Source: an uncultured bacterium
GTDB lineage: Bacteria > Acidobacteriota > Thermoanaerobaculia > Multivoradales > JAHZIX01
Assembly: GCA_965368975.1 (NCBI GenBank)
Contig: CBDUPA010000012.1
Span: forward strand, 83,540 to 147,539
Length of the DNA: 64,000 nucleotides
Direction: 5' to 3'
The position numbers and the translations under genes were made by a program. The notes beneath the pieces are model-generated. The model did no database searches. It was not told the origin of the DNA and saw only the letters and a list, made by a program, of their open reading frames with translations. This document shows positions 40,363 through 64,000 of the stretch, piece by piece. Each line of letters begins with the position of its first letter. Position 1 is the stretch's first letter.

Positions 40363-40408
40363 AGCTCGAGGCCGGTCCGAAAACAAAAGCAAAATTGCGA
40401 GGTTGAAC

Positions 40409-51300: not shown

Positions 51301-52258
51301 GGAGACCTCGAGCCGAGAGAAACTCTCCGTCGCCGCCGACTCCGACTCGTCGGCGCACTGCGAGGCGCACGGCTATGCTCTGTATGAAAAGGAACCGGTT
51401 CTGCTGGGGCGGCACAGCATCGAACTCGGCCTGGTCGCGATCGAACTGAAGCTACATTCGTTGGCGGTCTTCCGACTCGACAGGTCGACCTTCGAGGTGC
51501 GCGCGCGGGAGATTCACGCGCAGCGAGCGCAGAGCGAGTTTCCGCCGGCAGAACTGCAGACAATCGCGGTCTCGTTGCACCCCAATCCCCAGGAATCGAG
51601 CCCATCTGCTCCGAAGCTGCACCTGGCGGCAGCGCGCTTGCTCACCGCGCTGTTGCGCTTTGTGCTGCCGCTGATCTATCGCAACGTCCAGGATCGCTTG
51701 GAGGTCGCGTTGATCTTCCCGGGGGAGGACGGCGACAAGAGGTTCACAGCACCGTGGGATTCGGAGCTGGAGTCCGAGGCGGCCCTCTACCTCTTCGACC
51801 TGCACCAGGGGGGAGATGGCACTGCGCGGGCTCTGTACCGGGATGGCGTCGAGCTACCGCTGCGCTTCTGCCGACACTTCCTGGCCACGGACGTGGACGT
51901 GGAGCGGATCTTCCGGCTCCATGGGCACGAGAGTAGCTTGCAGGAGGTCAAGGTAACCCATGGAGGTCCCGAGGCGGTTGGGAACGATGCTGAGCCAGAG
52001 GACGAGATACTGGAAGCGTGGCCTTGGCAAGAGATCCGTGCTGGGTTGCTGGCCTGGTTGGATAGTCGTCTTCATCCGGAGTCCGTCTCCTGGGCCGAGG
52101 CCGAAGCGTCGGCTGCTGAGGAGGTTACGGAGGATACTGAACTAGAGGCAGAAGACCTGGAGGCAAGTGCCCCGGGCGATCACGCACAGACCGCTGAAAG
52201 TTCCACCGTCGAAGAAGCCACCGCCGAAGAGTCCACTGCTGAGACGGAAGAGGCTTGA
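48311..52258 (+). CDS. Polytopic-membrane-anchored P-loop ATPase / SF2-helicase-like protein (1315 aa).
   Basis: The N-terminal ~300 aa hold multiple TM helices. Walker A APEGSGKTT (nt ~49676-49700). DExx-like VVVDDVESF. Acidic C-terminal tail. 20-bp overlap with the upstream gene. Confidence 0.6.
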   Translation: MDPTWIDVAWQVIWQAIAGVLVWLDSQSLYVILGCVGGLLSFVYGLAYGLQWRLVKFLEPRPEQTAPLGRWEAMSSLLAPVTVVFFVLEGITRSLHRRVRGSKEPDWKVKHSSSAKNHGKPILIATLGPTFLLAGVFTAVVYWLARLGEPLFAEAFSHAGPYPFWESKLLSALLVLEAPPDIFPLASHPKVSLVLSLLFWTALWWTCGNLLRGFVYRTDLQRNLAGRRDTALPLWTSWFGVKKLTEAGEAYRGWAAWLVTAVILLTVGAGMTLNPAPGSTTAGVVDGLEPAVQVSPSALAVALILALSWVLHLHLKGKHFEPEPKSRREAIVPSEGLPGWQRVVAKLEERYRLTPPEFRGERPLLAPAFTVPTTALQVLSPLVPELLQEPEQSPEIRQTPPLNVMQAKVLESLSLFGYVHLQPPTTGDVLELSSSGPGAVEDRSGLSERHQIVLAPEGSGKTTLAILAAANNTLVHARATLLITRSGEQADELQLKFQEVVEPSTVRWNLRFRRMGQDFASDLSRDIVPDIVISSLHELTTGMLDNAEVYADFLRNVGLVVVDDVESFAGAVEIHAQLAFRRLRLLFRQVSEVEQLGEANAPLMLILGVDSMKEMAAWAKSLCGVQAVVRNFPAAMAETDQSKDSASEGSPSGDRSSGDSTSGDRASEEGARQQKWLPFSALQSHQGRQLTVPEVVAACEAAGVPWCYRPCGDGRRHRGRGPLLLEQEPEHATASPRDACVIFLDGRWSEVRRELQRSPWAGYQSRRQEVIFLVLVDPEEALACGELDPDLGFEASHDHVRPDLAEELVTLPLPVVRPPSSHVLQSHLLSDLVQSWFEVKDLVDTFEVPVAHRLRYLQSQGMLLMEERSDVQAALKEYEAKVYVRALAASLAIDEAGGSANDGIIEYPPLDKVRQVELVARSAVTIRNRADHTLLRTVEADSAAWIYYPGRIFEDSRGRFVVVGRVRRGDRLGAIEVEPVLHDNFSSPRRWFERIEPETSSREKLSVAADSDSSAHCEAHGYALYEKEPVLLGRHSIELGLVAIELKLHSLAVFRLDRSTFEVRAREIHAQRAQSEFPPAELQTIAVSLHPNPQESSPSAPKLHLAAARLLTALLRFVLPLIYRNVQDRLEVALIFPGEDGDKRFTAPWDSELESEAALYLFDLHQGGDGTARALYRDGVELPLRFCRHFLATDVDVERIFRLHGHESSLQEVKVTHGGPEAVGNDAEPEDEILEAWPWQEIRAGLLAWLDSRLHPESVSWAEAEASAAEEVTEDTELEAEDLEASAPGDHAQTAESSTVEEATAEESTAETEEA

Positions 52259-52262
52259 AGAG

Positions 52263-53084
52263 TCAAGAATGCGGACGCAAGTGGAACTCGTTCAAAGAGT
52301 AGTTCGCAATCGGAACCTCGAGGTAATCGTTTTCGTACAAGTGTTTGCGTAGGAGTCTTGAGAGTGCTTCTGGCGAGTCGATGTTGATCTTCTCCAAGAC
52401 AGCGACGAGCATTACATTCCTTTGTTCCCGTGTTTTATCGGCACCTTTTCTTGAGCAGTCGGGATCCTTAAAGCGCCCGAGGTTTACGGAATACAGTTTC
52501 CTGCCGCCAGACAGGTCGGCAATGGTGCGTACCCAAGAGATCAGCTGGTCCGCTCTGGAGCGCGCGCGCTCTTCTTCCAGATGGTGGATGGCCGCGATCT
52601 CACAGGAGGCCATGCCAATGGCAATAATGTCGGTGGCCTGTTCAACACTCGCTTGTAGTCCGGTAGAATTCAGGAACGCAAAGACATCTGCTTCTTTATT
52701 TCCAGCATTCATGATGACATCAGCCCGCCCGATGGGCCAGTAGTGTTCGCGGTCCAGAATGGCGATGTCCATCCAAACTTCCTCACCATTGGGGCCGTTC
52801 GCCTGGACGCGTCTTGTGTCCGTTCCCTCAGTAGGAAGATGTCCTGGTTCAAAACAAGGAGAGGGACAGGGACGTGGAAGCTCAGGGCCGTCGATATCGG
52901 GAGGATCATCGCTGCCAACATCGTTATCTAGAAGATCATTGATAACCACTGGAGGGTCTTGGGGTCCGGCTGCAAACTGGCTGCTGTACTTTTCTAGGTA
53001 AGGCTCGACTGTTACAGACAGGACCAGTGAGAAGAAGGCGCTTACAGAGGCCCATAATAGATCCTTCTTTGTAAAGAAACTCAT
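52263..53084 (-). CDS. Hypothetical secreted/membrane-anchored protein encoded in a low-GC island.
   Basis: 273 aa. N-terminal hydrophobic segment MSFFTKKDLLWASVSAFFSLVLSVTV. Local GC is about 50% against about 68% in the flanks. Confidence 0.45.
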   Translation of the reverse strand: MSFFTKKDLLWASVSAFFSLVLSVTVEPYLEKYSSQFAAGPQDPPVVINDLLDNDVGSDDPPDIDGPELPRPCPSPCFEPGHLPTEGTDTRRVQANGPNGEEVWMDIAILDREHYWPIGRADVIMNAGNKEADVFAFLNSTGLQASVEQATDIIAIGMASCEIAAIHHLEEERARSRADQLISWVRTIADLSGGRKLYSVNLGRFKDPDCSRKGADKTREQRNVMLVAVLEKINIDSPEALSRLLRKHLYENDYLEVPIANYSLNEFHLRPHS

Positions 53085-53094
53085 TATCTGATTC

Positions 53095-53649
53095 CTATGA
53101 AATGACGGTGATAAGTCCAACCAGTAGGCCACCAACACCGACGAACAAGCTGGCAGAGGAAATCCATTTTTCACGCTTGCGCTGTGCAGATTGCTCTTGC
53201 ATCTGTTGTTTTAGATGCTGTGTTAGGGGCTGCAAGAGATGGTTATTGCTCGGCAGATTCTCGTCCAGACGTTTGAGGTGTAATTGAATGTCTTTGGGCA
53301 ATCCTTGAAACGGCTCTTCTGACTCCAGCTGTTTTAGGAAATCTTCGATTCTGTCTAGGAAGGTCGAAGGAGTCTCATCCATCTCACCTGTGATCACTCT
53401 GCTGAGAAGACTCTCGAGGGAGTGCTTGAGGCCGACGGTATTAACGTCATGTGTCCGGGCAAGGCTTCGAACTCGAGACCAGGTCACATCTTCGTGACTC
53501 AATGCTTTGGTGAGATCTTCTCTGAAGTTTGCCAACTCTTTGGGGCGTTCGTTGCGTTCCTTCACTTCTGAGAGAAAAGCGACCATACCAACAGAACTGC
53601 CGATAGCAGTCCCGAGCAAGACGAGAATTAGGATATAGGTAATTTCCAT
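53095..53649 (-). CDS. Hypothetical membrane protein (N- and C-terminal TM helices) in the low-GC island.
   Basis: 184 aa: MEITYILILVLLGTAIGSSVGMVAFL... and ...LFVGVGGLLVGLITVIS. Low GC. Confidence 0.45.
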   Translation of the reverse strand: MEITYILILVLLGTAIGSSVGMVAFLSEVKERNERPKELANFREDLTKALSHEDVTWSRVRSLARTHDVNTVGLKHSLESLLSRVITGEMDETPSTFLDRIEDFLKQLESEEPFQGLPKDIQLHLKRLDENLPSNNHLLQPLTQHLKQQMQEQSAQRKREKWISSASLFVGVGGLLVGLITVIS

Positions 53650-53801
53650 AGATCTGTAGATTTCTGTGCTGGATTTCCGGGAATGGCTCCACTAAGAAGA
53701 AACGCGAGAACACGTCGATTCCCGGACCAACGGCTGTACTCAATCTCGGCGGAAAAATTCAGCTTGGCTTTCTGAGTGGCTTAGATCATGAAGACGGGCC
53801 C

Positions 53802-55967
53802 TCAAACCCGCGACGCCACCCACTCGCTGATCCTCCCGTGCGCAGTCACCAGCGCCGACTTGCGGGCACGCGTCAGCGCGACGTAGAGGAGGGCGCGTTC
53901 CATGAGTTCGGTTTCGCGCTGGATGGCTCGGTCTTTGGAGTAGCGCACGCGGGTGCGCCAGGGCATGTTGTCGTCGCTCAGGCCGGCGACGATCATGTGG
54001 TCGTACTCTAGGCCTTTGACGCGGTGCATGGTGGCGACGCGTAGGCCGGGTTTGTCGGCGTCGTCGCTGGTGTCGCGGCCCAGACGCAGGGTGGGGACGC
54101 CTCGGTCTTCTAGGGCTTCGGCGTAGCGGTCGGCGAGGGCGTTGGTGCGGGCGACGAGGCAGGCGTGGGTGGTCTCGCGGTCGGTGAGCCATTGGGCGAT
54201 GGCTTCGACTTCGTCGTCGAAGGTGGGTAGTTCGAGGGTTTGGGGGACCGCGCCGTGGGTGAGGGAGCGGTAGCCTTGACGCGAGTCGGCGGTGCCGTCG
54301 AGGTCGTCGAATTCTTGGTTCTCGAGCACGGCGACGGCGTAGCGGCGGATTTCGTCGGTGGTGCGGTAGTTGATGCGCAGGCGGCGGCCGCGACCGCGGA
54401 TGTTGACGCCAGCGTGGGAGAGCACGACGCGCTTACGGTAGATGCGCTGGTGGCCATCGCCGACCAGGAAGAGGTCGTCCGGCTTTTCGGGGACGGCGGC
54501 GCGCAGCAGGCGGAAGGCGTTGGTGCTCATGTCTTGCGCTTCGTCGACGACGATGGAGCGTAGCGCCAGCTGTACGCGGCCGGCTTCGAGCAGCACGCAG
54601 GCGTCGAGCAGGGCGTCTTCGGGTTCGCGCAGGCCGTGCTTGTCGAGCTGGTGGCGGTATTCTTCGAATACCGGCCAGATCGCCTTGCGCTGGGCGCGAC
54701 TGAGGCGCTCACCGCGACCGGCGCGGCTGGCTCGCTTGTAGTCTTTCCAGCTCTGGCAGCCTTGCGCCTGCACCACGGCTTCCCACTCGTCGCGGTAGAA
54801 GGACTCGGAGACTTCGAGGTGGGTTGCGGGATCGGATGCGCTGCTGGGCGCCAGCGTGAGGGCGGAGTCCCAGGAGTCCTTCAGCGGGCCACGGCTCGGA
54901 TCCCAGTACTTGATCCGGTATTCGTAGCCGGCGCGCAGCAGCAGGTCACGCACCCATTTGTCGATGTTGACGACATCGATGCGTCGCAGCGCTTCGGGTG
55001 GGCACAGGCGCGCCAGGTTGGCGCGGATGTCGTTGGCCAGGTTCTTGGTGAAGGTGGTGAAGAGGATGCGATCGCCGGGGGCGACGAAGACGTTCTGCGC
55101 CAGGTAGGCGGCGCGATGCATGGCGACGACGGTCTTGCCGGTACCGGCGCCGCCGAGCACGCGCACGGGACCGTTCCAGCTACGCTCGACCAGTTTGCGC
55201 TGGCTCGGGTGCAGGAAGGTGCGCCACTTTTCGAGCGGCGCGTCGAGCATCGCCTGCAGGCTGGCGTCGTCCTCGACGACCACGAAACGCCGCTTGGTGG
55301 CGTCGCGTTCGAGGGCGCGGTCGATGTCCGAGGTGTCGATGTCGGGCTCGGCGGACACCGCCATGGCCTGTTCGACTTCTTCCAGCGACTCGCCCTCGCT
55401 GAGCCAGTAGAGGGCTTCGAAAGCCTCGGGCGGCAGCTGCGCGGAAAGGGCCTCCAGTTCGTGGGCCCTGCGCAGCGCGCGCACCTCGTCGAGCTGGGGC
55501 TCGGGGACGCCGAGGCGCAGGAGTTCGCGGTCGCGGATGGCGTCGAAGAGGCGCGTTTCGACGGTGCCGGCACTTGCTGCCGGCGTCTCTGCCCCGTCCC
55601 GGGGCGACGCCGTCGCTTGGCGGCTGAAGACCTGCAGGGCGCCGGTTTCCGGGTGCACCGAGACGCTCTTGTGCTCGGCCCAGCGCATGGCTTTGTCGTG
55701 GTGGTCGATCCACAACAGCAGGTAGGTGTTGCCCTTCTCGGGCTGACGTACGATGGCTCGGTACTCCAGGTCGATGCGCACGGTGCGTAGACGCGGATCG
55801 GAGAAGGTGCTGATGGGCTCGTAGTTGATGCTGGACTGCGTGGGGTCCTGACGGAATTTGCGCAGGAACTTGCTCACCTTCTTCTGCTGTGCGCGCGGGA
55901 TGAGCGCGAAGGCATCGAAGAATTCCTCGTAGATCGCGACTTTGAAGGTTTGCTCGTAGGCCATCAC
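53802..55967 (-). CDS. UvrD/Rep-like superfamily-1 helicase with a novel ~250-aa N-terminal domain.
   Basis: Walker A GGAGTGKT. DExx VVDEAQD. VGDGHQRIY (UvrD motif III-like). TMHRVKGLEYDHMIV (motif VI-like). 4-bp overlap with the upstream giant helicase gene. Confidence 0.8.
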   Translation of the reverse strand: MMAYEQTFKVAIYEEFFDAFALIPRAQQKKVSKFLRKFRQDPTQSSINYEPISTFSDPRLRTVRIDLEYRAIVRQPEKGNTYLLLWIDHHDKAMRWAEHKSVSVHPETGALQVFSRQATASPRDGAETPAASAGTVETRLFDAIRDRELLRLGVPEPQLDEVRALRRAHELEALSAQLPPEAFEALYWLSEGESLEEVEQAMAVSAEPDIDTSDIDRALERDATKRRFVVVEDDASLQAMLDAPLEKWRTFLHPSQRKLVERSWNGPVRVLGGAGTGKTVVAMHRAAYLAQNVFVAPGDRILFTTFTKNLANDIRANLARLCPPEALRRIDVVNIDKWVRDLLLRAGYEYRIKYWDPSRGPLKDSWDSALTLAPSSASDPATHLEVSESFYRDEWEAVVQAQGCQSWKDYKRASRAGRGERLSRAQRKAIWPVFEEYRHQLDKHGLREPEDALLDACVLLEAGRVQLALRSIVVDEAQDMSTNAFRLLRAAVPEKPDDLFLVGDGHQRIYRKRVVLSHAGVNIRGRGRRLRINYRTTDEIRRYAVAVLENQEFDDLDGTADSRQGYRSLTHGAVPQTLELPTFDDEVEAIAQWLTDRETTHACLVARTNALADRYAEALEDRGVPTLRLGRDTSDDADKPGLRVATMHRVKGLEYDHMIVAGLSDDNMPWRTRVRYSKDRAIQRETELMERALLYVALTRARKSALVTAHGRISEWVASRV

Positions 55968-58900
55968 TCAGTCTCCTCTGCTAGCGCCTCTGCTAGTACC
56001 TCGGCCAGCGGCGAGACGTCGACCGTCCCGTCGGGCTCGAGCGCCAGGTCTTCCAGGTAGAAAAGTCTCCAGTCCGCCGCCGGCTCGCCGACGGCCCAGG
56101 CGCTGTCGGCGTACGAGGTGAGCGCGACGCGCGCGGTGTGCCACACCAGTTCGGCCTCGCTCCACACGGTATCGCGCTGGTTCGGTATGTCGTCACCGAC
56201 CACCGGCTCCACGATGCCCGCGGCGATCATGGCCTCGGCGGCGCCTCGGTAGGCGTCCTCGATCTCGTCGAGCTGTGTCCAGATTGCATCCTCGCCTTCC
56301 GGGCCGTGCTCGGCGAGGCTGCGCAGCTGAGCGATGCCGCTGTAGTCGCCGACGTCCGATGTGGTGACGAAGACGATGTCGTCGATCGCGCGCAGCCACT
56401 GGAAGAGACGCAGGAAGCCACGCCACGCCCGGTGCATCTGCGGCAGTTCGCGCCGATCTTCGCGGTCGTCGAGTTCGCGGTCGTCGAGGCGGGCGAGCAC
56501 GGTCACTCGCTGACCATCGTGGGCGGCCATCCACTCGATCTGCCGCGGCTCGCCCCAGGTGCCGCTGGCGAGGGCGCGGGGCCTCGTCGCGGCGAGCTGG
56601 TCGCGTAGGGCTTCCGGTGCCGCTTGCCGCGCGAACTCGGTCCAGGCGCGTTGCTGACTCGGCAGCGTGGCTTCGAGTCGAGGTACCAGCGCCGCCGCCG
56701 CCAGGTCGCGCCACGGCAAGCCGTTGGCATCTTGGAGGTCCTGCAAGAGCCAGCGGAAGGTCGACTGTTGCGGCAGGTCGGTGAACTGGGTGAGGCCCAG
56801 CTGCTGGAGAGCCTTCTTGAAGTCACCCAGGTCGAGCGCCGCCAGTTCGGGCGCGGGCTCGACCTCGGTGGATCTCGTCAGCTCGGCTTCCAGATCGTCC
56901 CAGGTGAAGGTCCACACGTCCCAGCCCGCGGCCAGCAGTGCCTGGCGCTGGCGCAGGTCCTGCCCCAAGCGATCTTGGTGGAACTGCCAGCCGTCGAGGA
57001 AGATGGCCAGACGACGATCGGTGGCGGCGCTGGCCGGTCGCAGCACGAAGTCGATCGAGACGCCGATGCCGCCGGTCTCGGCCCTCGGCGGTTCGACCTG
57101 CGGCTCGATACGCCATTGGGCGTCGCCCAGCGTCCACAGCCAAGCATCTTTGATGCCGATCGGGATCCGCTTCAGCTGGGCTGGGTGCTGTTCGTTGCCG
57201 GCGCGTAGTAGGGCTTCGAGGAAGCGGGCTTCGAGGGCACTGTCGAGCAGGCCGGAGTGGCTGATGTCGCCCAGGCGTTCGATTTCCTGCACGCTGTCGG
57301 CGCGCGCCAGGATGCGGCGCAGGATCTCGGAGGCCGTGCGCGCCGAGGTGTCGCGCATCTCGCGACTGTTGCGGTAGCCGAAGAGGCAGCGATAGCAGCC
57401 TTCCACCAGCTTGCCGGCTCGGTTCGTGGTGCCCCAGCAGGCGCAGCCCTCGATCCGTTGCAGGCTCGCCTCGAGAGCTCGGAACAGGGGTATCGTGGCA
57501 TCGGCATCGGGCGTGACCAGCTGTTTCAGAAAGCCGGTGCCGCCGGGCACGGAGTCGAAGAGCACCAGGTACTGGCGGCGCAGCGTGCTGTCGGGAGTCG
57601 GTTCGGAGTAGACGGTGGTGCGCAGGTGGTCGACGCTGCCGGCGAAGTAGCTCTCCAGCCCCAGCTGCAGGGCGGCGGTGAACGAGTTGAGCTGGCGCGT
57701 GCCGGCGAAGTCGGTGATCGGCAGCAGCAGGCGCAGGGCCTCGGACTCGAGCTGGCGGTAGAGATAGACGCAGGACTCGATCTGCTCGTCCGTGTCCTTG
57801 CGTCGCGACGGGCAGGACAGCAGGTGGTCGGTCTTCTCACCCTTGCGCGTCGCCTGCACCTTGCCGCAGCGTGCGCACAGCTCGAAACCCTGGCGCACCA
57901 TGGCTCGGCCGGCGATGGTGTTGCGCGCGCCCAGGTCGGAGGGTTCGCCGAAGTTGATGTCGCGAAAGGTCACCCGTGCGCAGTACTCGAAGCCGAAGGG
58001 GTGACGGTCGTCGTCCAGCCGCCAGGCGCGCGAGGAACTGCGAGTGTCGAAGGTGGGCAGGATGTCGCGCTCGAAGAAGCGCGGCTGGCGTTCGTCGCGA
58101 TCGTCGCGAATCCGGGAGTTGCGGTCGGATTCTCTGGCGAATACTTGCTCCAGCTTCAGCAGGCGCTGGGTCTGGCCGCTGTCGCGCCAGTCGGCGGCGC
58201 CGCAAACCGGGCAGGCCGTGTGCGCATCGCCGGTGTCGATCGACTCGGCGTGGCTGCACTCGGGGCAGAAGCGCCAGGTCTCGAGCTTGGAGGACGAGAG
58301 ATCGACGGCGTCGATGCCCACGCGTCGTCCCGAAGCGTAGAACTCGGCGCCAGGCGCCAGCTCGGCCAGGGCGCTCGACGGCGAGCGCTTGTACTCGTAG
58401 GTCCAGGTTTCGTAAGGACTCCCCTGGGCTGGAGGGTGCTTCTTGCGCCGCCAGATCACCGAGCGCAGTCGCACCGCCGACTCCGGGAAGGCGTAGTTGG
58501 GCAGCAGGCCCTGGTCGGTGAGGAATTCGAGCGTCGAGCGCTGGTTGATCGCCTTGATCAGGCCGATCAGGGCCTCTTTCTCGGCTTCGCGCTCGTCGAT
58601 CTGCTCCTGGTGGTCCTTGTCGCGGGCCTCGGTGGCGCGTAGCACTTTGAGTTGCTTGCGCAGGGTCTCTACGTTGGCGCGGTGTGCTTCGCGCTGCTTG
58701 CGTTCCTTGTGCAGGGTGTCGAGCAGGCGGCTTTCGAGGGTCGCCTCGATGTGGTGCAGGGCATCTCGAGCTTGCGCCTTCTCGGGCTGCTCGCTGTCGA
58801 GTTCAGCTTTGGCCTCCGCGCCGAGCAGGAAGCGCTCCAGGTGGGCGGCGGTGGGCGGTCCGATCTCGTCCTCGAACATCTCGAGGAATTCTCGCAGCAG

Positions 58901-61900
58901 GCGCGGACGCTCCTGCTTCACGAAGGCGAGCAGGTTGCTCGGGAACCGCTCGACGTCCGGCTGGTTGCCTTGGTTGAGCACGCTGCGCAGCTGCGGCGGT
59001 AACTCGGCACGGTCACCCTCGACGCCGACCCAGCGATCGATGCAGAAGGCGGTGAGCTGGCGTTCGAGCACGGCTCCGGTGTCGAGAAAGACACCGGGCG
59101 GCGGCACGTCACCGGCGATCATCTCGTGCGGCTGGGCGAAGAAGTAGAGGTCGTGCGGCTTCGCCGCGGCGACGGTGAGCACGAAGGCGTTGCCATCGCG
59201 CCGGCCGGCGCGGCCGATGCGCTGCAGGTAGCTGGCCTGGCCGGGTGGTACCGAGCACAGGATGGCGCTCGACAGGTCGCCGATGTCGATGCCCATCTCC
59301 AGCGTCGGCGTGCAAGAGAGCAGGTTCGGGTACCACGGCCGCCGCGCCTCGGGATCGTCCAGCTCCGGCGACGGTTCGAATGCTTTGAACTCGATCTCGA
59401 TGCGCTCGCGCTCGGCGCGCTCCAGCAGGCCGGTATGCTCCTGGGCAAAGATGCGCTGCAGGTGACCGCTGCGGTAGAGATGGCCGAAGTAGTCGTGTGC
59501 CGGCGCGGCGTCCGGACGGTAGACGCCGGCACAGCCCGTGCGCAGGCAGGGTACGCCGTGCCAGCGTTCGGCCAGCGCGCGGCTGGCGTGGGTGCGGTGA
59601 CCGCAGACGTGGCAAGCCAAGGCTGCACTGTGCGGGCTGATGACCAGCGCTTCTTCGCGCAGACCCCAGATCTGCTCACCCTTGGATGCACTGCGCTCGT
59701 CGAGCAGGCCGACTCGCACCAGCGCGCTCAGCACCACCGGGTACAGCGAGCCGGCGTCGGCGACCAGGCCGGGGCCACCCAGGAAGCAGGCATCGGCCCA
59801 GCGTGCATACCAGGATTCCCCGCCCCGTCCGGTGCGGCTCCAGGTGTCGAAGCGACGGCCGGTGCGGTCGGTCAGGAAGCTGGGCAGGCGCGAGCTGCTC
59901 TTGTAGCCGGGCAACGCCGGTTGCCGGGAGAAGGCATGGACATCCTTGCCGCAGCTCTCGATATAGGCGCCCGGCAGGCTGCGTGCCAGGATGCCGCCGC
60001 GCAGGCGCAGGTGTTGTAGCAGTCCGAGCACGAACGCCTCGACGCGCCGCGCTTCGACCTGGCGCAGGCCGGGCACCTCGTTGCGCACCACCTCCACCAA
60101 GGCCGCCACCGCGGTCTCTACATCGCCCGGCCGCAGGTCGGCGACGGCGCAGCCGGTGCGGGTCAGTGAGCGGCCGATCTCCGCCTGCAGCGAGAACTCG
60201 GTCAGCACCTCGAAGGCCAGGCGCTGGTCGATGAGGTCCGGCAGGTCGGAGGCGCGCGGTAGCTCGCCGTCGCGACGCAAGGCGTCCCAATCGTGCAGCC
60301 AGGCCATGTTGGGCGCCAGGAAGGTGGCGACGAAGGTCGCCTCGTCGTGCGCCTGCCGAGCCCACGGGCCGAGCCCGTCGGCCAGCTCGCGCAGCGTGGT
60401 TTCGCCCAGGGGCTCGAGCGCTTGCAGCATCGCGATGCGCAGGTTGGTACGCCAGGTGCGAGCGGCAAAGAAGCCGGCCCGGTGCGCCGCGTCTTGCACG
60501 CTGTCGGAGAAGGTGAGCAGCTTCTTGTCGTCGTTGAAGCGCGAGGCGAAGAGCTGGTCGATGTGCACGCTGGTCAGCGTGGCGGCGCGGAAGCCGACGA
60601 TGGCCAGGCTCTCGCGTGCGCGGCAGAAGGGGCAGTCGCGCACCAGGGCTTGCCGGCTGGCGGTGGACTGAGCTTCGAAGATTTCGATCACCCGCAGCGT
60701 CTCGTCGGCGTGCTCCGCGTCGACCTTGATCAGGTTCTTCACGTCGAGCTCGAAGGCGCTGTGCTGGAGCCGGTCGTCGGCGGGCCAGGCGTTGGCGGGG
60801 AACAGGAAGCGTACGCGGCTGCTGCGCCCGAAGTAGGCGTCGTAGAAGCGCCGCGGCAGGCAGCGATAGAGGTACGGCCGATCGCGTTCCACCACAGTGC
60901 CCCAGCCCAGGGCGCCGCATTCGCGGCAGTGGATCATCGGCAGGTGGCGGTCTTGCTCCTCCTCGTCGAGGTCGTCGGAGTGCCGCAGGTGCGGCTGCGG
61001 TCCAACGTTGGCGACCAGGCGTCGCAGCTCGCGTTGCCACAGCTGCACGCGCACCTCCAGCAGCGGCGCCGCCGGTCTCGGTCGCCCCTCGGCGCGCCGC
61101 CGCTCGGCCACTTCGGGCAACTCGTGACGCCAGGCGCGAGCCTCGGAGACCAGGCCCAGCAGGCTGAGCACGGCGAGGCGGGCGAACTGGGCGTCCCGGT
61201 GCCAAGCGTCGCGCCTGCGCCGCATCTCGTGCACGGCGTCGTCCAGCGTCGTGGCCTGGCCATCGAGGGCGCGCAGCAGGTCGTGGAAGGCGGCATGGTG
61301 GCGCAACTGCCGCCCCAACTCGACGCTGCGCTCGAACGATTCAGGCCCAGTGAGTTCGCCCTCACCGTCGGCGCCGATCGTCGCCGCTACGTCTGCCGGG
61401 AACCACAGGGCGAGCTGCGCCGCCAGCCAGGCGTGCGGGTCCGGGGCCTGCGCCGCGTCGAGTCGCTCCAGGTCTTCAGCGTCCGGTTCCTCGGTGTAGC
61501 GGATCTCGCAGCCGTGCAAGAACTGCTCCACACTCTGCCGCGTCTCGCCGATGATGGCGTCGGCGTCGAAGGGTTCGCCGAAGACCTTACGCGCATAGTC
61601 CCGCAGCTGTTCTCGCGCCGCCTCGCCGCCCAGCGTGGCGCTGGTGCCGATGCAGGCCAGCGAGCCGTCGTCCACGTCGAGACGCCGCTTGAGGCGTCGC
61701 AGCAGGCAGGCCAGGTCGGTGCCCTGGGCGCCGTCGAAGGTGTGGATCTCGTCGACCACCAGGAAGCGCAGCGTGCCCTTCACGTTGTGCTGCCAGATGC
61801 GCTGATCGCGTGGACGCAGCAGCAGGTAGTCGAGCATCTTGTAGTTGGTGAGCAGGATGTCCGGCGGCGCTTCTTGCAGGGTGGCGCGATCGGTGATCAC

Positions 61901-62461
61901 GTGGTCCGCCCCCATGCGCGTCTCGCCGTGTGCCGACCCACGACGCTTGCCCTTGCCACCGCTACCCCCGTCCCCCACGTAGAGCCCCGCCGTCACGCGG
62001 CCGCGCAGCTTGTGGTTGTCATAGATCCGCCGCGCGATGCGCGCCGCCTGGTCGCTGGCCAGCGCGTTCATGGGGTAGATCAAGATCGCCTTGACGCCCG
62101 GCTCGTGCGCCGTCTGCAGGCAGTGGTCGAGAATCGGAAGCAGGAAGCTCTCGGTCTTGCCGGAGCCGGTGCCGGTGGCCAGCAGGGTGCTCTGCTTGCG
62201 TCGACCGCCGAGGCGGGCGAACACTTGTTCCTGGTGGTGATGGGGAGGAAACCCGAGCGGTACGTCGGGGAAGACGTCTGGGGTCTCGCCGCTCAGGAAG
62301 GGCATCTTGACGGAGAGGTAGGGCCCCTTGAACAGCATGCCGTCGTCCGCGAGCAGGTGTTCGACGACGTTCTCCATGCCCGGCGTGGAGGACCAGAAGG
62401 AGAAGCGCAGGAAGTCTTGCAAGCCCTGTTCGAGCTGGCGGTGGATGGCGGAGGGGATCAA
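55964..62461 (-). CDS. Giant (2165 aa) DEAD/DEAH-box helicase with a DUF1998-like zinc-ribbon region and a C-terminal DUF559/Vsr-like endonuclease-fold domain. It is DruE-like, or alternatively a DrmA-DrmB-like fusion.
   Basis: N-terminal ...LLATGTGSGKTESFLLPIL... and DEIH (VVDEIHTF) resemble the YprA/DrmA-type helicase. ~1450-1800 aa: CPECSH...CPVCG zinc ribbon and LVLFDSVPGGTG, as in DUF1998. ~1850-1950 aa: IDFVLRP...LAIFLDGWQFH...GWDVWTFTWDDL, as in DUF559. Confidence 0.75.
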   Translation of the reverse strand: MIPSAIHRQLEQGLQDFLRFSFWSSTPGMENVVEHLLADDGMLFKGPYLSVKMPFLSGETPDVFPDVPLGFPPHHHQEQVFARLGGRRKQSTLLATGTGSGKTESFLLPILDHCLQTAHEPGVKAILIYPMNALASDQAARIARRIYDNHKLRGRVTAGLYVGDGGSGGKGKRRGSAHGETRMGADHVITDRATLQEAPPDILLTNYKMLDYLLLRPRDQRIWQHNVKGTLRFLVVDEIHTFDGAQGTDLACLLRRLKRRLDVDDGSLACIGTSATLGGEAAREQLRDYARKVFGEPFDADAIIGETRQSVEQFLHGCEIRYTEEPDAEDLERLDAAQAPDPHAWLAAQLALWFPADVAATIGADGEGELTGPESFERSVELGRQLRHHAAFHDLLRALDGQATTLDDAVHEMRRRRDAWHRDAQFARLAVLSLLGLVSEARAWRHELPEVAERRRAEGRPRPAAPLLEVRVQLWQRELRRLVANVGPQPHLRHSDDLDEEEQDRHLPMIHCRECGALGWGTVVERDRPYLYRCLPRRFYDAYFGRSSRVRFLFPANAWPADDRLQHSAFELDVKNLIKVDAEHADETLRVIEIFEAQSTASRQALVRDCPFCRARESLAIVGFRAATLTSVHIDQLFASRFNDDKKLLTFSDSVQDAAHRAGFFAARTWRTNLRIAMLQALEPLGETTLRELADGLGPWARQAHDEATFVATFLAPNMAWLHDWDALRRDGELPRASDLPDLIDQRLAFEVLTEFSLQAEIGRSLTRTGCAVADLRPGDVETAVAALVEVVRNEVPGLRQVEARRVEAFVLGLLQHLRLRGGILARSLPGAYIESCGKDVHAFSRQPALPGYKSSSRLPSFLTDRTGRRFDTWSRTGRGGESWYARWADACFLGGPGLVADAGSLYPVVLSALVRVGLLDERSASKGEQIWGLREEALVISPHSAALACHVCGHRTHASRALAERWHGVPCLRTGCAGVYRPDAAPAHDYFGHLYRSGHLQRIFAQEHTGLLERAERERIEIEFKAFEPSPELDDPEARRPWYPNLLSCTPTLEMGIDIGDLSSAILCSVPPGQASYLQRIGRAGRRDGNAFVLTVAAAKPHDLYFFAQPHEMIAGDVPPPGVFLDTGAVLERQLTAFCIDRWVGVEGDRAELPPQLRSVLNQGNQPDVERFPSNLLAFVKQERPRLLREFLEMFEDEIGPPTAAHLERFLLGAEAKAELDSEQPEKAQARDALHHIEATLESRLLDTLHKERKQREAHRANVETLRKQLKVLRATEARDKDHQEQIDEREAEKEALIGLIKAINQRSTLEFLTDQGLLPNYAFPESAVRLRSVIWRRKKHPPAQGSPYETWTYEYKRSPSSALAELAPGAEFYASGRRVGIDAVDLSSSKLETWRFCPECSHAESIDTGDAHTACPVCGAADWRDSGQTQRLLKLEQVFARESDRNSRIRDDRDERQPRFFERDILPTFDTRSSSRAWRLDDDRHPFGFEYCARVTFRDINFGEPSDLGARNTIAGRAMVRQGFELCARCGKVQATRKGEKTDHLLSCPSRRKDTDEQIESCVYLYRQLESEALRLLLPITDFAGTRQLNSFTAALQLGLESYFAGSVDHLRTTVYSEPTPDSTLRRQYLVLFDSVPGGTGFLKQLVTPDADATIPLFRALEASLQRIEGCACWGTTNRAGKLVEGCYRCLFGYRNSREMRDTSARTASEILRRILARADSVQEIERLGDISHSGLLDSALEARFLEALLRAGNEQHPAQLKRIPIGIKDAWLWTLGDAQWRIEPQVEPPRAETGGIGVSIDFVLRPASAATDRRLAIFLDGWQFHQDRLGQDLRQRQALLAAGWDVWTFTWDDLEAELTRSTEVEPAPELAALDLGDFKKALQQLGLTQFTDLPQQSTFRWLLQDLQDANGLPWRDLAAAALVPRLEATLPSQQRAWTEFARQAAPEALRDQLAATRPRALASGTWGEPRQIEWMAAHDGQRVTVLARLDDRELDDREDRRELPQMHRAWRGFLRLFQWLRAIDDIVFVTTSDVGDYSGIAQLRSLAEHGPEGEDAIWTQLDEIEDAYRGAAEAMIAAGIVEPVVGDDIPNQRDTVWSEAELVWHTARVALTSYADSAWAVGEPAADWRLFYLEDLALEPDGTVDVSPLAEVLAEALAEETE

Positions 62462-64000
62462 GCGCGGTCCTTCCCGTCAGCGAGCGGACGGCCTTGTTCG
62501 GCGAATCTTTTGGTGAAATGTTCCCAGGCGACCGCGTAGTCCTTCTCGCGGTCGCAGCGCACCCACGGCGCCTGGTACACGATCGTCTTCTCGCGCGGGC
62601 CGCCGGGCAGAGTGTCGTCCATCACGACCTGGGTCACGGTCTCGTTGCCGGTGTAGCCGGCTTCTTCGGACATGTGTTGGACGTCGTTCCAGCAGGGGTT
62701 CGGATCTTTCTTGCTGGTGGTGCGGTTCAGGCCGACACCCACCAGGCCGCGCGAGTTGGTGAAGACGATGCGGCCGTTGCGGTCGTACCAGGTGTCGGCT
62801 TCGTAGGAGCGCAGGACGGGGAATTGGACGCGGTAGATGGTCTGGAGTTGTTCGAGGGTGAGGCCGAGGGCCATGGAGATCAGGACGTCGATTTCTACCA
62901 GCACGGCGCGGCGGGCGGCGTCGGGGCGGATGGCGGAGTCGCGGGTCCAAGACTGGTCGCTCGATGCGAAGGGCTGTTCCAGGAATTGAGAGAGGAAAGG
63001 TGTCGCTTCTGTACTCCACTCCCGCCTGGATCGGCGATTCCAGAGATCTGCGAAGTGGGTGGTGAGGCAAACGAGGCTACAGACTCGGGCGACGAGAGCT
63101 TCCTGGATCTTGGACTCGGGGATGATCGGTAGGCGCCGCGCCAGGTTTGGTCGGAAGTCTCCAGAGCCGCTCGATTTGATCAGGAAGTCAATCGGTAAAG
63201 ACATCCACGTCCCAGCTACAGCTACAGCCTGAGTCTCATTCGAAAAACAATAACTGTAGACACCGTCGATGTGCGCTGTGCCTGGTGGTGAGATGGCCGG
63301 TTGCAGTGTGCGCTCACTTGTCGGGCCCAGACCTCTGTTCACCACGAGTCGAAAGTAGTCCAGTACCGCGTTCGGGGCATCATCCGAGGCCCAAGGGACT
63401 TTGGGCGATCGCGTCCGATAGTCTGAGGGCTCGGCATTGGGCAGATAGATCGAGCGCGGCAGATAGTCTTCTGGTAGCTCCGTCAGGTCCAGTACGTCAT
63501 AGCAGCTGTTGTTCGTGACCTCTGCGCGCGGAGTCTTGTAGAACGGATTACCGACGTGGAAGTGCGGTCCGGAAATAATCCATTCGTGTACATCTTGCGG
63601 GAACCTCACCTCCTTTCGGATGGTTCCATCCCGCTGAGACCGGGACTCGTGCCACATTTCTGCCGACTTGTAGCAGTCTGCCGGCAGATCGCCCAGTTTC
63701 AATGGACTGACAGCGAACGCTTCGAGCGCCTGAAGCAAGGTCGCAGAATGGAGCGCCGGAAGCTTGGCCTCCGTTGCCGGAGTGTCCGGTTCGTCATAGA
63801 GACGAGCAAAGAGTTCCAGCTCCGTCTCCGTGATGCGCAGAATCCGATCACGATGACCGCGCGTCTCCCAGCTGTTCTCGTCGTCCTTGATCCCGGGCAC
63901 CGGGCCGTAGCCATCGTGGGCATGACACTCGTCGATGGTTGCGGGGACGAAGAGATTTGCCAGGTGCGTGAAGTCCGGAGTGCTTCTTTGGGCTCCATAG
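62458..64000 (-). CDS. Partial CDS (C-terminal ≥514 aa; the N-terminus lies beyond the window edge) of an uncharacterised large protein. It is a possible DruH-like or methyltransferase-like defence-island partner.
   Basis: The open frame continues without a stop to the window end. A weak NPFY (NPPY-like) element sits in HFHVGNPFYK. 4-bp overlap with the downstream giant helicase. Confidence 0.5.
   Translation of the reverse strand, partial: YGAQRSTPDFTHLANLFVPATIDECHAHDGYGPVPGIKDDENSWETRGHRDRILRITETELELFARLYDEPDTPATEAKLPALHSATLLQALEAFAVSPLKLGDLPADCYKSAEMWHESRSQRDGTIRKEVRFPQDVHEWIISGPHFHVGNPFYKTPRAEVTNNSCYDVLDLTELPEDYLPRSIYLPNAEPSDYRTRSPKVPWASDDAPNAVLDYFRLVVNRGLGPTSERTLQPAISPPGTAHIDGVYSYCFSNETQAVAVAGTWMSLPIDFLIKSSGSGDFRPNLARRLPIIPESKIQEALVARVCSLVCLTTHFADLWNRRSRREWSTEATPFLSQFLEQPFASSDQSWTRDSAIRPDAARRAVLVEIDVLISMALGLTLEQLQTIYRVQFPVLRSYEADTWYDRNGRIVFTNSRGLVGVGLNRTTSKKDPNPCWNDVQHMSEEAGYTGNETVTQVVMDDTLPGGPREKTIVYQAPWVRCDREKDYAVAWEHFTKRFAEQGRPLADGKDRA

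What the first reader, a model, noticed from the sequence alone, without database searches (positions are those of the whole stretch)
53802..64000. Helicase-rich defence-island candidate: truncated large protein, 2165-aa DEAD/DUF1998/DUF559 giant and UvrD-like helicase (Druantia type III-like or DrmAB-like).
Seen directly: three consecutive minus-strand genes with 4-bp overlaps. The giant combines a YprA/DrmA-like DEAD helicase N-terminus (ATGTGSGKTE, DEIH), a Cys4 zinc ribbon plus an LVLFDSVPGGTG block typical of DUF1998, and a Vsr/DUF559-like nuclease-fold motif (AIFLDGWQFH...GWDVWTFTWDDL).

Established knowledge: giant helicase+DUF1998 proteins define DruE of Druantia, where type III is DruH-DruE. 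Helicase plus DUF1998 pairs (DrmA/DrmB) also define DISARM.

Unusual here: a predicted nuclease domain is fused to the giant, and a translationally coupled UvrD-like helicase with an unassigned 250-aa N-terminal domain is present. Neither is part of the canonical descriptions.
Basis: partly seen in the sequence, partly recalled or inferred. Interest (0 to 1): 0.68.

Follow-up and report, generated by a model that had tools for sequence, protein, structure and literature searches.

The report
ARMADA type II anti-phage operon
The three genes are the last three of a four-gene ARMADA type II anti-phage defence operon, a system named and tested in E. coli in 2025, so the locus is real but is one more example of a known kind.

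Summary
Three co-oriented minus-strand genes overlap by 4 nt, and every quoted motif is present.

The locus is neither Druantia type III nor DISARM. It is ARMADA type II (Bell et al. 2025, PMC12458937).

- The cut-off upstream gene is the C-terminal third of ArmB, a PglX/DrmMI-like methyltransferase. It is 44% identical to E. coli EDL933 ArmB residues 1120-1639.
- The 2165-aa giant is ArmC, a YprA-family helicase with DUF1998/MZB and a C-terminal Vsr-type nuclease. It is 36% identical end to end to EDL933 ArmC (1244 bits), against 114 bits to EDL933 DruE.

ArmA should lie beyond the window edge.

In 80 related loci, armD follows armC in 65 of 68 and armB precedes it in 44 of 52. The residues whose mutation abolished or weakened defence in E. 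coli are conserved here.

Novelty is low: a divergent orthologue from a high-GC genome. In passing, many related loci carry other known defence genes between armB and armC.

The parts
62458..64000 (-). armB, 3' part only. It encodes the C-terminal ~513 aa of a ~1600-aa PglX/DrmMI-like (type IIG-like) DNA methyltransferase. The catalytic NPPW and SAM motifs, and armA, lie beyond the window edge.
   Evidence: PADLOC REase_MTase_IIG PDLC03614, 1.3e-79, model positions 1110-1577 of 1584. BLASTP to EDL933 ArmB: 408 bits, 44% identity, ArmB residues 1120-1639 of 1644. 64% identity to ArmB of L001. The frame is open to the window edge.
55964..62461 (-). armC, a 2165-aa YprA-family helicase-nuclease and the likely effector. 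It has a TTG start.
   Evidence: BLASTP to EDL933 ArmC: 1244 bits, 36% identity over 2203 columns. To EDL933 DruE: only 114 bits. Pfam domains. Full-length homologues at 40-62% identity.
61622..62236 (-). ArmC RecA1/DEAD domain (aa 76-280). Walker A K102 and Walker B D237 correspond to E. coli K110 and D234, whose mutation abolished defence.
   Evidence: Pfam DEAD 2.1e-19. Residue register from the alignment. Mutant data in PMC12458937.
59198..59329 (-). ArmC Helicase_C core of RecA2 (aa 1045-1088).
   Evidence: Pfam PF00271, 3.3e-7. The block 1046-1091 is almost entirely invariant in 23 homologues.
57383..57679 (-). ArmC MZB/DUF1998 zinc-binding domain (aa 1595-1693), with Cys cluster C1673, C1675, C1689, C1692.
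   Evidence: Pfam PF09369, 8.3e-11. The cysteines are invariant.
56870..57244 (-). ArmC Vsr/DUF559-type nuclease domain (about aa 1740-1864), predicted active. D1804, D1823, G1824, H1828, D1835, Q1838, R1839, W1850, W1854 and D1856 are invariant.
55967..56839 (-). ArmC C-terminal extension (about aa 1875-2165), two alpha/beta domains of unresolved identity. The literature predicts inactivated EEP and Vsr domains here.
53802..55967 (-). [quoted passage not shown]
   Evidence: BLASTP to EDL933 ArmD: 637 bits, 48% identity over 712 aa starting at residue 6. Pfam UvrD-helicase 1e-24 and UvrD_C 3e-18. PADLOC GajB 3e-27.
55614..55967 (-). ArmD RelE/ParE-fold domain (about aa 1-118). Invariant F38, E50, R64, R70, P76, H90, A93, W96.
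55218..55613 (-). ArmD helical linker region (about aa 119-250) between the RelE-like domain and the helicase core.
   Evidence: Helices 146-250 in the model. Conserved across ArmD homologues.
53814..55211 (-). ArmD SF1 helicase core (aa 253-718). Walker A K278 and Walker B D475 correspond to E. coli K266 and D454.
   Evidence: Pfam. Register. Motif positions. Mutant data.

Best explanation
The region holds the distal three genes (armB 3' part, armC, armD) of an ARMADA type II anti-phage defence operon. The first gene, armA (a BrxHII/DrmD-like SNF2 ATPase), and the 5' two-thirds of armB should lie just beyond the right edge of the window.

Proposed working, by analogy with the tested E. coli orthologues and with DISARM and BREX:
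1. ArmB, a large PglX/DrmMI-like adenine methyltransferase with a target-recognition part, reads and probably marks host DNA motifs. ArmA supplies ATP-driven remodelling or translocation.
2. ArmC, a YprA-type 3'-5' helicase with an OB-CON-DUF1998 canopy and several zinc modules, engages invading DNA and cuts it with its C-terminal Vsr-type nuclease.
3. ArmD, an SF1 helicase carrying a RelE-fold domain, assists as a sensor or processor.

The outcome is direct, non-abortive clearance of phage.

Shown here: gene identities, order, coupling, folds and conservation of the functionally tested residues. Shown elsewhere, in E. coli only: phage protection, the need for all four genes and their ATPase and NPPW motifs, and the non-abortive phenotype. 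Inferred: every mechanistic step, the role of methylation in telling self from non-self, and activity of this particular locus.
For: Orthology to the validated system: ArmC 1244 bits and 36% identity end to end; ArmD 637 bits and 48% including the N-terminal domain; ArmB C-terminus 408 bits and 44%. These were compared with E. coli EDL933 armABCD fetched and identified from doi 10.1101/2025.09.22.677730.

The architecture matches the published definition of ARMADA II (PMC12458937). The Vsr-type nuclease fold is, with invariant acidic and His residues. The RelE/ParE fold on a GajB-like helicase is, with PADLOC GajB.

Synteny: armD lies directly downstream in 65 of 68 related loci. armB lies upstream in 44 of 52, with armA also visible in 37. 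The nearest retrievable relative (62% identity) and Magnetococcus marinus MC-1 both have SNF2-MTase-giant-UvrD. Those neighbours score as DrmD (1e-98 to 1e-105) and REase_MTase_IIG/DrmMI.

The junctions overlap by 4 nt. Walker A/B residues equivalent to those whose mutation abolished or weakened defence in E. coli are present: ArmC K102 and D237, ArmD K278 and D475. A BrxR/WYL regulator sits upstream in L003.
Against: armA and the catalytic part of armB are outside the window, so completeness of the operon is unverified. The source contig could not be retrieved.

No experiment exists for this locus. Identity to the tested E. coli proteins is only 36-48%.

The ARMADA mechanism itself is unresolved in the literature. 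armB deletion in EDL933 caused no growth defect, so a simple restriction-modification logic is unlikely.

The Vsr assignment rests on fold similarity of moderate Z (about 7) and sub-threshold Pfam hits. The two C-terminal domains after it could not be identified.

No direct comparison with an ARMADA type I ArmC was made. Type II is assigned from gene order and the presence of ArmD.
Confidence: 0.9

Rival explanations
1. Druantia type III-like system. The giant would be a DruE that works with a DruH-like sensor and degrades phage replication intermediates.
For: The best PADLOC models for the giant are DruE1 (3.6e-99) and DruE3 (1.6e-91). The published tree places ARMADA helicases closest to Druantia.
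Against: No DruH homologue is found in the 64-kb window, nor next to armC in the related loci, apart from one weak 196-bit DruH-like match upstream in L055. BLASTP to E. coli type III DruE gives 114 bits, in helicase motifs only, against 1244 bits to ArmC. DruE III carries tandem PLD nuclease domains. Here there is no HxKxxxxD motif and no PLD hit, and the nuclease is Vsr-type. The upstream gene is a methyltransferase, not DruH.
Confidence: 0.02
2. A class 1 DISARM variant in which DrmA and DrmB are fused and DrmC is replaced.
For: In relatives, the SNF2 gene scores as DrmD (1e-98 to 1e-105) and the methyltransferase also hits DrmMI (1e-55). DefenseFinder labelled the E. coli locus as DISARM I-related. 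ARMADA shares two further proteins with DISARM besides the helicase.
Against: DrmA models reach only 1e-15, and no DrmB model appears among the 25 PADLOC hits shown for the giant. The helicase and DUF1998 parts are one polypeptide. There is no PLD DrmC. A conserved extra ArmD gene is present. The published phylogeny separates ARMADA from DISARM as its own clade. This is largely a naming question: ARMADA is defined as DISARM-related.
Confidence: 0.05
3. A stand-alone type IIG restriction-modification enzyme that merely sits beside two unrelated helicase genes, with no functional unit.
For: The truncated gene's only PADLOC hits are REase_MTase_IIG models (1.3e-79).
Against: The stop and start codons overlap by 4 nt. 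The order is conserved across distant phyla. All four genes are required for defence in two E. coli strains.
Confidence: 0.02
4. Housekeeping DNA-repair helicases: a YprA/MrfA-type enzyme plus a UvrD/PcrA/HelD-type enzyme.
For: Weak NCBIfam hits to PcrA, Rep, UvrD and HelD, and to DEXH repair helicases.
Against: All those hits fall far below the curated cut-offs, for example 79 bits against 911 for PcrA. The giant size, the nuclease and RelE-like fusions, the methyltransferase linkage, the patchy distribution and the defence-gene inserts in related loci all point to defence.
Confidence: 0.01

Closest known systems
ARMADA type II (armABCD) of E. coli O157:H7 EDL933 / NCTC 12900 (PMC12458937; doi 10.1101/2025.09.22.677730)
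   Same: Same gene order for the visible part (armB-armC-armD). The domain architecture matches in each protein, including the Vsr-type nuclease on ArmC and the RelE-fold domain on the GajB-like ArmD. Alignments are end to end at 36%, 48% and 44% identity. The Walker residues that were tested by mutation are conserved.
   Different: The sequences are divergent and come from a high-GC host (65-70% GC). The locus is not next to Druantia III or Zorya II, and no tRNA or integrase is seen in the window. armA and the armB catalytic region were not seen. The identity of the two domains after the Vsr domain is unresolved here.
ARMADA type I
   Same: A YprA-like helicase with a C-terminal Vsr nuclease, plus a BrxHII-like helicase and a PglX-like methyltransferase.
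   Different: In type I the helicase gene usually comes first and there is no ArmD. Here armC follows armB and is followed by armD.
DISARM class 1 (DrmD, DrmMI, DrmA, DrmB, DrmC)
   Same: An SNF2 ATPase, an adenine methyltransferase and a YprA-family helicase with DUF1998. In relatives, PADLOC gives DrmD and DrmMI hits.
   Different: DrmA and DrmB are separate genes in DISARM and fused here. The PLD nuclease DrmC is absent and a fused Vsr-type nuclease takes its place. There is an extra ArmD.
Druantia type III (DruH-DruE)
   Same: A giant YprA-family helicase-nuclease effector. According to PMC12458937 the two share a BrxA-like insert and zinc modules.
   Different: No DruH. PLD nuclease there versus Vsr here. 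No methyltransferase or SNF2 partner in Druantia III. Only 114 bits of similarity.
Gabija GajB
   Same: The ArmD core is a UvrD-type SF1 helicase whose best defence-model hits include GajB (3e-27).
   Different: No GajA partner here. ArmD carries a RelE-fold domain and a helical linker at its N-terminus.
BREX (PglX, BrxHII)
   Same: ArmB is PglX-like and ArmA is BrxHII-like. As with PglX, losing the methyltransferase abolishes defence without reported toxicity.
   Different: No PglZ, BrxC, BrxA, BrxB or BrxL. The effector here is a helicase-nuclease.

Membership tests
ARMADA type II | A YprA-family helicase (DEAD + Helicase_C + DUF1998/MZB) orthologous to ArmC | tested here: met
   Pfam domains. 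1244 bits and 36% identity end to end to EDL933 ArmC, against 114 bits to EDL933 DruE.
ARMADA type II | A predicted active Vsr-type nuclease at the ArmC C-terminus | tested here: met
ARMADA type II | A PglX-like methyltransferase ArmB immediately upstream of armC on the same strand | tested here: met
   The C-terminal 513 aa are 44% identical to EDL933 ArmB residues 1120-1639. PADLOC REase_MTase_IIG 1.3e-79.
ARMADA type II | ArmB catalytic NPPW and SAM-binding motifs intact | not testable with these tools
   This part of the gene lies beyond position 64000. The source contig was not retrievable.
ARMADA type II | A BrxHII/RapA-like SNF2 helicase ArmA as the first gene | not testable with these tools
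   It would lie outside the window, and no ArmA-like sequence is found inside it. It is present in the nearest relatives L001 and L003 and in 37 of 52 related loci with enough upstream DNA.
ARMADA type II | [quoted passage not shown] | tested here: met
ARMADA type II | Strict order armA-armB-armC-armD | tested here: met
   The order B-C-D with overlapping stop and start codons is seen in the window. armA was not seen.
ARMADA type II | ATPase residues required for defence in E. coli are conserved | tested here: met
   ArmC K102 and D237 correspond to E. coli K110 and D234. ArmD K278 and D475 correspond to K266 and D454.
ARMADA type II | BrxA-like insert after RecA1, a beta-barrel zinc module and a MarR-like insert in RecA2 | not tested
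   Only indirect evidence: conserved CxxC pairs at 512, 610, 950, 1399, 1417 and 1529.
ARMADA type II | Protects against phage without abortive infection | not testable with these tools
   This needs an experiment. It has been shown only for the E. coli systems.
Druantia type III | A DruH gene adjacent to the giant helicase | tested here: not met
   tblastn with EDL933 DruH finds nothing in the window. The flanking genes are ArmB-like and ArmD-like.
Druantia type III | DruE with C-terminal PLD-type nuclease domains | tested here: not met
   No PLD Pfam hit and no HxKxxxxD motif. The C-terminal nuclease has a Vsr fold.
DISARM class 1 | Separate DrmA (helicase) and DrmB (DUF1998) genes | tested here: not met
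   A single 2165-aa ORF carries both parts. DrmA models reach only 1e-15.
DISARM class 1 | A PLD nuclease DrmC | tested here: not met
   No PLD domain in the three genes and no HxKxxxxD motif in ArmC or ArmD.
DISARM class 1 | A DrmD SNF2 ATPase and a DrmMI adenine methyltransferase | tested here: inconclusive
   The visible methyltransferase fragment hits type IIG models, not DrmMI. In relatives, the full proteins hit DrmD (1e-98) and DrmMI (1e-55). armA was not seen here.

The most novel reading that the evidence does not exclude
The RelE-fold domain on ArmD may not be a structural relic. It may be a working RNase gated by the SF1 helicase, with E50, R64, R70 and H90 resembling a YoeB-type Glu-Arg-His site. 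ARMADA II would then have a second, RNA-directed arm besides ArmC's DNA nuclease. The evidence here shows only the fold and strict conservation of these residues, not activity. In EDL933, armD was the least required of the four genes.
Probability: 0.25. Interest if true: 0.5.

Novelty: new member of a known kind. Interest (0 to 1): 0.2.

Why it matters
For annotation, it turns a 'Druantia-like / unclassified helicase island' into a named, experimentally validated system type. PADLOC-DB v2.0.0 (2023), the version searched here, labels the three genes piecemeal as DruE, type IIG RM and GajB.

For ARMADA biology, it adds a divergent high-GC orthologue. The invariant residues seen across about 23-50 homologues give concrete mutagenesis targets in a system whose mechanism is still open. 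In the ArmC nuclease these are D1804, D1823, H1828, D1835 and R1839. In the ArmD RelE-like domain they are E50, R64, R70 and H90.

The side observation may also help in finding new defence genes: the armB-armC junction in many relatives hosts other known defence genes.

Tried and rejected
- **Source contig.** Exact-sequence look-ups of the giant, of both possible ArmD starts and of the 100%-identical P0001 all found nothing. The cluster look-up gave no accession or name. The genome-contig scan did not contain the source genome (best 50% identity). So armA and the armB 5' part could not be recovered.
- **ArmD N-terminus by sequence.** Pfam found nothing significant for the two N-terminal ArmD segments, residues 1-120 and 121-250, and a 45-sequence profile of the first 125 aa found nothing significant in the PDB, even at E up to 10. 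Only structure prediction resolved it.
- **ArmC C-terminus by sequence.** A profile of the last 451 aa against PDB sequences gave nothing.
- **Rejected structure job.** It was redone with database homologues.
- **Domains after the Vsr domain.** Foldseek against the PDB on the C-terminal model gave only a weak TnsA match (5e-3) and no EEP match. The two domains after the Vsr domain remain unidentified.
- **Vsr alignment.** hhalign of the C-terminal profile against E. coli Vsr gave a sensible register but no significance (E 0.098).
- **Downstream ORFs.** The 303-aa and 184-aa ORFs downstream of armD, and the vWA/tubulin-like operon proteins, have no counterpart in any of the related ARMADA loci. 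They are not treated as parts of the system.
- **Rejected readings.** Druantia III, DISARM class 1, a stand-alone type IIG RM enzyme and housekeeping repair helicases were all considered and rejected (see rivals).


Full report
**Observation**

The window is GC-rich, 62-74% over most of its length. On the minus strand at its right end lie three consecutive ORFs: 53802..55967 (721 aa), 55964..62461 (2165 aa) and 62458 to beyond 64000. The last one has no stop before the window edge, and 513 codons are visible.

Read directly, the stop of the giant (TGA) overlaps a GTG start of the 721-aa gene (GTGA), with an in-frame ATG one codon later. The stop of the truncated gene overlaps a TTG start of the giant (TTGA). 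That TTG start is credible because the family N-terminus M-I-P-S is nearly invariant.

Pfam gives DEAD (76-280), Helicase_C (1045-1088), MZB/DUF1998 (1595-1693) and a sub-threshold REase_MTES_1575 hit (1798-1855). In the 721-aa protein, the UvrD-helicase and UvrD_C domains begin at residue 253.

**What the genes are**

PADLOC (2023 models) labels the giant DruE-like (DruE1 3.6e-99, DruE3 1.6e-91, DrmA only 1e-15). It labels the 721-aa protein GajB-like (3e-27). It labels the truncated protein as the C-terminus of a ~1584-aa type IIG methyltransferase model (1.3e-79, model positions 1110-1577). NCBIfam hits to housekeeping helicases are far below their cut-offs.

A database search found thousands of relatives of the giant. 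More than a hundred are ~2100-aa full-length homologues at 40-62% identity, from Myxococcota, Desulfobacterota-type MAGs, Acidobacteria and Magnetococcus.

I examined two of their contexts: a metagenomic contig at 62% identity and Magnetococcus marinus MC-1. Both show the same four-gene operon:
- an SNF2 ATPase of about 950-1020 aa;
- an Eco57I/MmeI-like methyltransferase of about 1580-1630 aa;
- the giant;
- a UvrD-like helicase of about 710 aa.

A BrxR/WYL regulator lies upstream in Magnetococcus. The SNF2 proteins score as DrmD (1e-98 to 1e-105). The methyltransferases score as REase_MTase_IIG (1e-242 or better) and DrmMI (1e-55).

**Literature**

A full-text search led to Bell et al. 2025 (PMC12458937). 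That paper defines ARMADA, the 'disARM-related Antiviral Defense Array'.

Type II has a strict order:
- ArmA, BrxHII-like SNF2;
- ArmB, a PglX-like methyltransferase;
- ArmC, a YprA-like helicase with a predicted active C-terminal Vsr-type nuclease, often followed by inactivated EEP and Vsr domains;
- ArmD, a GajB-like UvrD helicase fused at its N-terminus to a RelE-like domain.

The E. coli NCTC 12900 system protected against 13 of 80 phages. It needed all four genes, and mutating the ArmA/ArmC Walker A and B motifs, the ArmD Walker A motif or the ArmB NPPW motif abolished protection, while ArmD Walker B and the ArmB SAM-binding GxG motif were only partly required. It acted without abortive infection. 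A second preprint showed the same for armABCD on O-island 172 of EDL933, with armD the least required gene and no growth defect in any deletion, armB included.

**Direct test of membership**

- The window giant aligns with EDL933 ArmC end to end: 1244 bits, 36% identity over 2203 columns.
- Against the neighbouring type III DruE it aligns only in helicase motifs, at 114 bits.
- The 721-aa protein aligns with ArmD from residue 6 to 711, at 48% identity and 637 bits.
- The truncated protein aligns with ArmB residues 1120-1639 of 1644, at 44% identity.

From these alignments, the residues mutated in E. coli are conserved. ArmC K102 and D237 correspond to K110 and D234. ArmD K278 and D475 correspond to K266 and D454. 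No DruH-like or ArmA-like sequence occurs anywhere in the window, and there is no PLD HxKxxxxD motif in ArmC or ArmD.

**Synteny**

A scan of one genome per species found at least 590 relatives, and 80 loci were fetched.
- armD follows armC directly on the same strand in 65 of 68 loci with enough downstream DNA.
- armB precedes armC in 44 of 52 loci with enough upstream DNA, and armA is also visible in 37.

The three window genes therefore form a functional unit and not a chance neighbourhood.

**ArmC nuclease**

An alignment of 23 homologues shows invariant D1804, D1823, G1824, H1828, D1835, Q1838, R1839, W1850, W1854 and D1856 in the DUF559-like block.

Sequence-level support is weak. Pfam MTES_1575 scores 1e-4 and DUF559 0.09, both below cut-off. 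There is no PDB sequence hit. An hhalign register places D1804 on Vsr D51 and H1828 on Vsr H69, but it is not significant alone (E 0.098).

The two domains after the Vsr domain (about 1875-2165) are confidently folded but could not be identified.

**ArmD N-terminus**

Sequence methods found nothing, although JGI labels a few homologues 'RelE'. A model of residues 1-262, built on 51 homologues, has pLDDT 90.7.

E50, R64, R70 and H90 are invariant. Their resemblance to a YoeB-type Glu-Arg-His site is my inference from general knowledge of that family and was not tested.

**How it most likely works**

Shown elsewhere: E. coli orthologues defend directly, need all four genes and need the ATPase and NPPW motifs.

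Inferred:
- ArmB reads and marks host motifs together with the SNF2 ArmA, in a BREX/DISARM-like way. armB can be deleted without toxicity, so this is not classical restriction-modification.
- ArmC loads on invading DNA as a YprA-type helicase and cuts with its Vsr-type domain.
- ArmD assists as a helicase or sensor.

None of these steps was tested for this locus.

**Limits**

armA and the catalytic two-thirds of armB lie outside the window, and the source contig could not be retrieved. I did not compare the protein with a type I ArmC. Type II is assigned from gene order and the presence of ArmD. The internal BrxA-like, zinc-barrel and MarR-like inserts were not modelled.

**Verdict**

This is a real, intact-looking ARMADA type II locus seen from armB (part) to armD. 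The features it flagged as non-canonical are the hallmarks of a system published in 2025. Novelty: a new member of a known kind. Interest is low.

**Surroundings**

Upstream in the window are ordinary genes (tgt, secD, secF) and a lantibiotic-dehydratase-like gene. A four-gene vWA / tubulin-like (Tubulin_2) operon at 37639-52258 converges on armD. Between that operon and armD lies a 1.5-kb stretch of only 49-51% GC with two orphan ORFs. No tRNA is present in the window.

Noticed in passing
Related loci, e.g. L027:6056-9994, L023:4972-7122, L068:6217-9519, L047:7269-8849, L008:7898-9274, L037:7477-9339, L063:8068-9999, L026:8183-9904: In 25 of 44 related ARMADA II loci, a 1-6 kb insert sits between armB and armC. 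The inserts are mostly co-oriented with the operon and largely unrelated to one another (only four pairs of their larger ORFs share similarity). Of the ten largest insert ORFs, nine hit defence models or domains: Dsr2 (7.7e-208), PsyrT (4.5e-287), PDC-S68 (E=0), GajA/OLD-like (4.8e-90), PtuA (2.3e-94), GmrSD/HEC-06, Schlafen AlbA_2 (two loci) and an SMC/AAA_21 ATPase. The tenth is a ResIII helicase with only weak PbeA/REase hits. The armB-armC junction looks like a slot for embedded defence genes. A keyword search of the main text of PMC12458937 found no mention of this. The window locus has no insert.
   Followed up: partly
window 37639-52258 (+ strand): Four large co-oriented, tightly packed genes converge on armD: vWA (907 aa), tubulin-like Tubulin_2 PF13809 (1291 aa, 8.8e-41), a 1351-aa protein with no clear domain, and a 1315-aa protein with a hydrophobic N-terminus and a weak DEAD/P-loop hit. 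PADLOC hits are marginal. The vWA + FtsZl1/tubulin-like pairing matches the operon type described by Makarova and Koonin 2010 (PMC2875224). The two giant partner proteins are uncharacterised. None of the four has a counterpart in the related ARMADA loci.
   Followed up: partly
window 52263-53801: A stretch of 49-51% GC in a 65-70% GC genome, directly downstream of armD. It holds two overlapping minus-strand ORFs (303 aa and 184 aa) with no significant family hit and no homologue in related ARMADA loci. A weak terminator-like hairpin lies at 53724-53701. It may be a remnant of foreign DNA or a lineage-specific gene.
   Followed up: partly
window 62458-64000 versus 53802-62461: The visible part of armB has clearly lower GC (60%, GC3 0.72) than armC and armD (67-69%, GC3 0.86-0.87). 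This may reflect recent exchange of the methyltransferase C-terminal (specificity) region. The EHEC study also found armB to be the most variable gene of the island.
   Followed up: no
L012 (Crocosphaera watsonii WH 8501), L039, L073, L085: These loci depart from the 'strict' order. In L012 an ArmA-like gene lies about 7 kb downstream of armD and no armB is found upstream. In L039 and L073 armD is displaced 2-7.5 kb from armC. L085 has no armD within 10 kb.
   Followed up: no
L003:1412-2308 (Magnetococcus marinus MC-1): A BrxR-type WYL regulator (Pfam WHD_BrxR, WYL, BrxR_CTD) sits directly upstream of armA. This suggests BrxR-style transcriptional control of some ARMADA II operons.
   Followed up: no
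related loci, e.g. L034, L037, L040, L053, L056, L061-L063: In many relatives the tblastn match to the window ArmC stops near query residue 1857, just after the Vsr domain. The ~300-aa C-terminal extension is therefore the most variable part of ArmC. This agrees with the paper's 'often, but not invariably' statement.
   Followed up: no
window 34699-37464 (+): A 921-aa protein with a lantibiotic dehydratase N-terminal domain (1.4e-46) lies just upstream of the vWA/tubulin-like operon. No other lanthipeptide genes were looked for.
   Followed up: no
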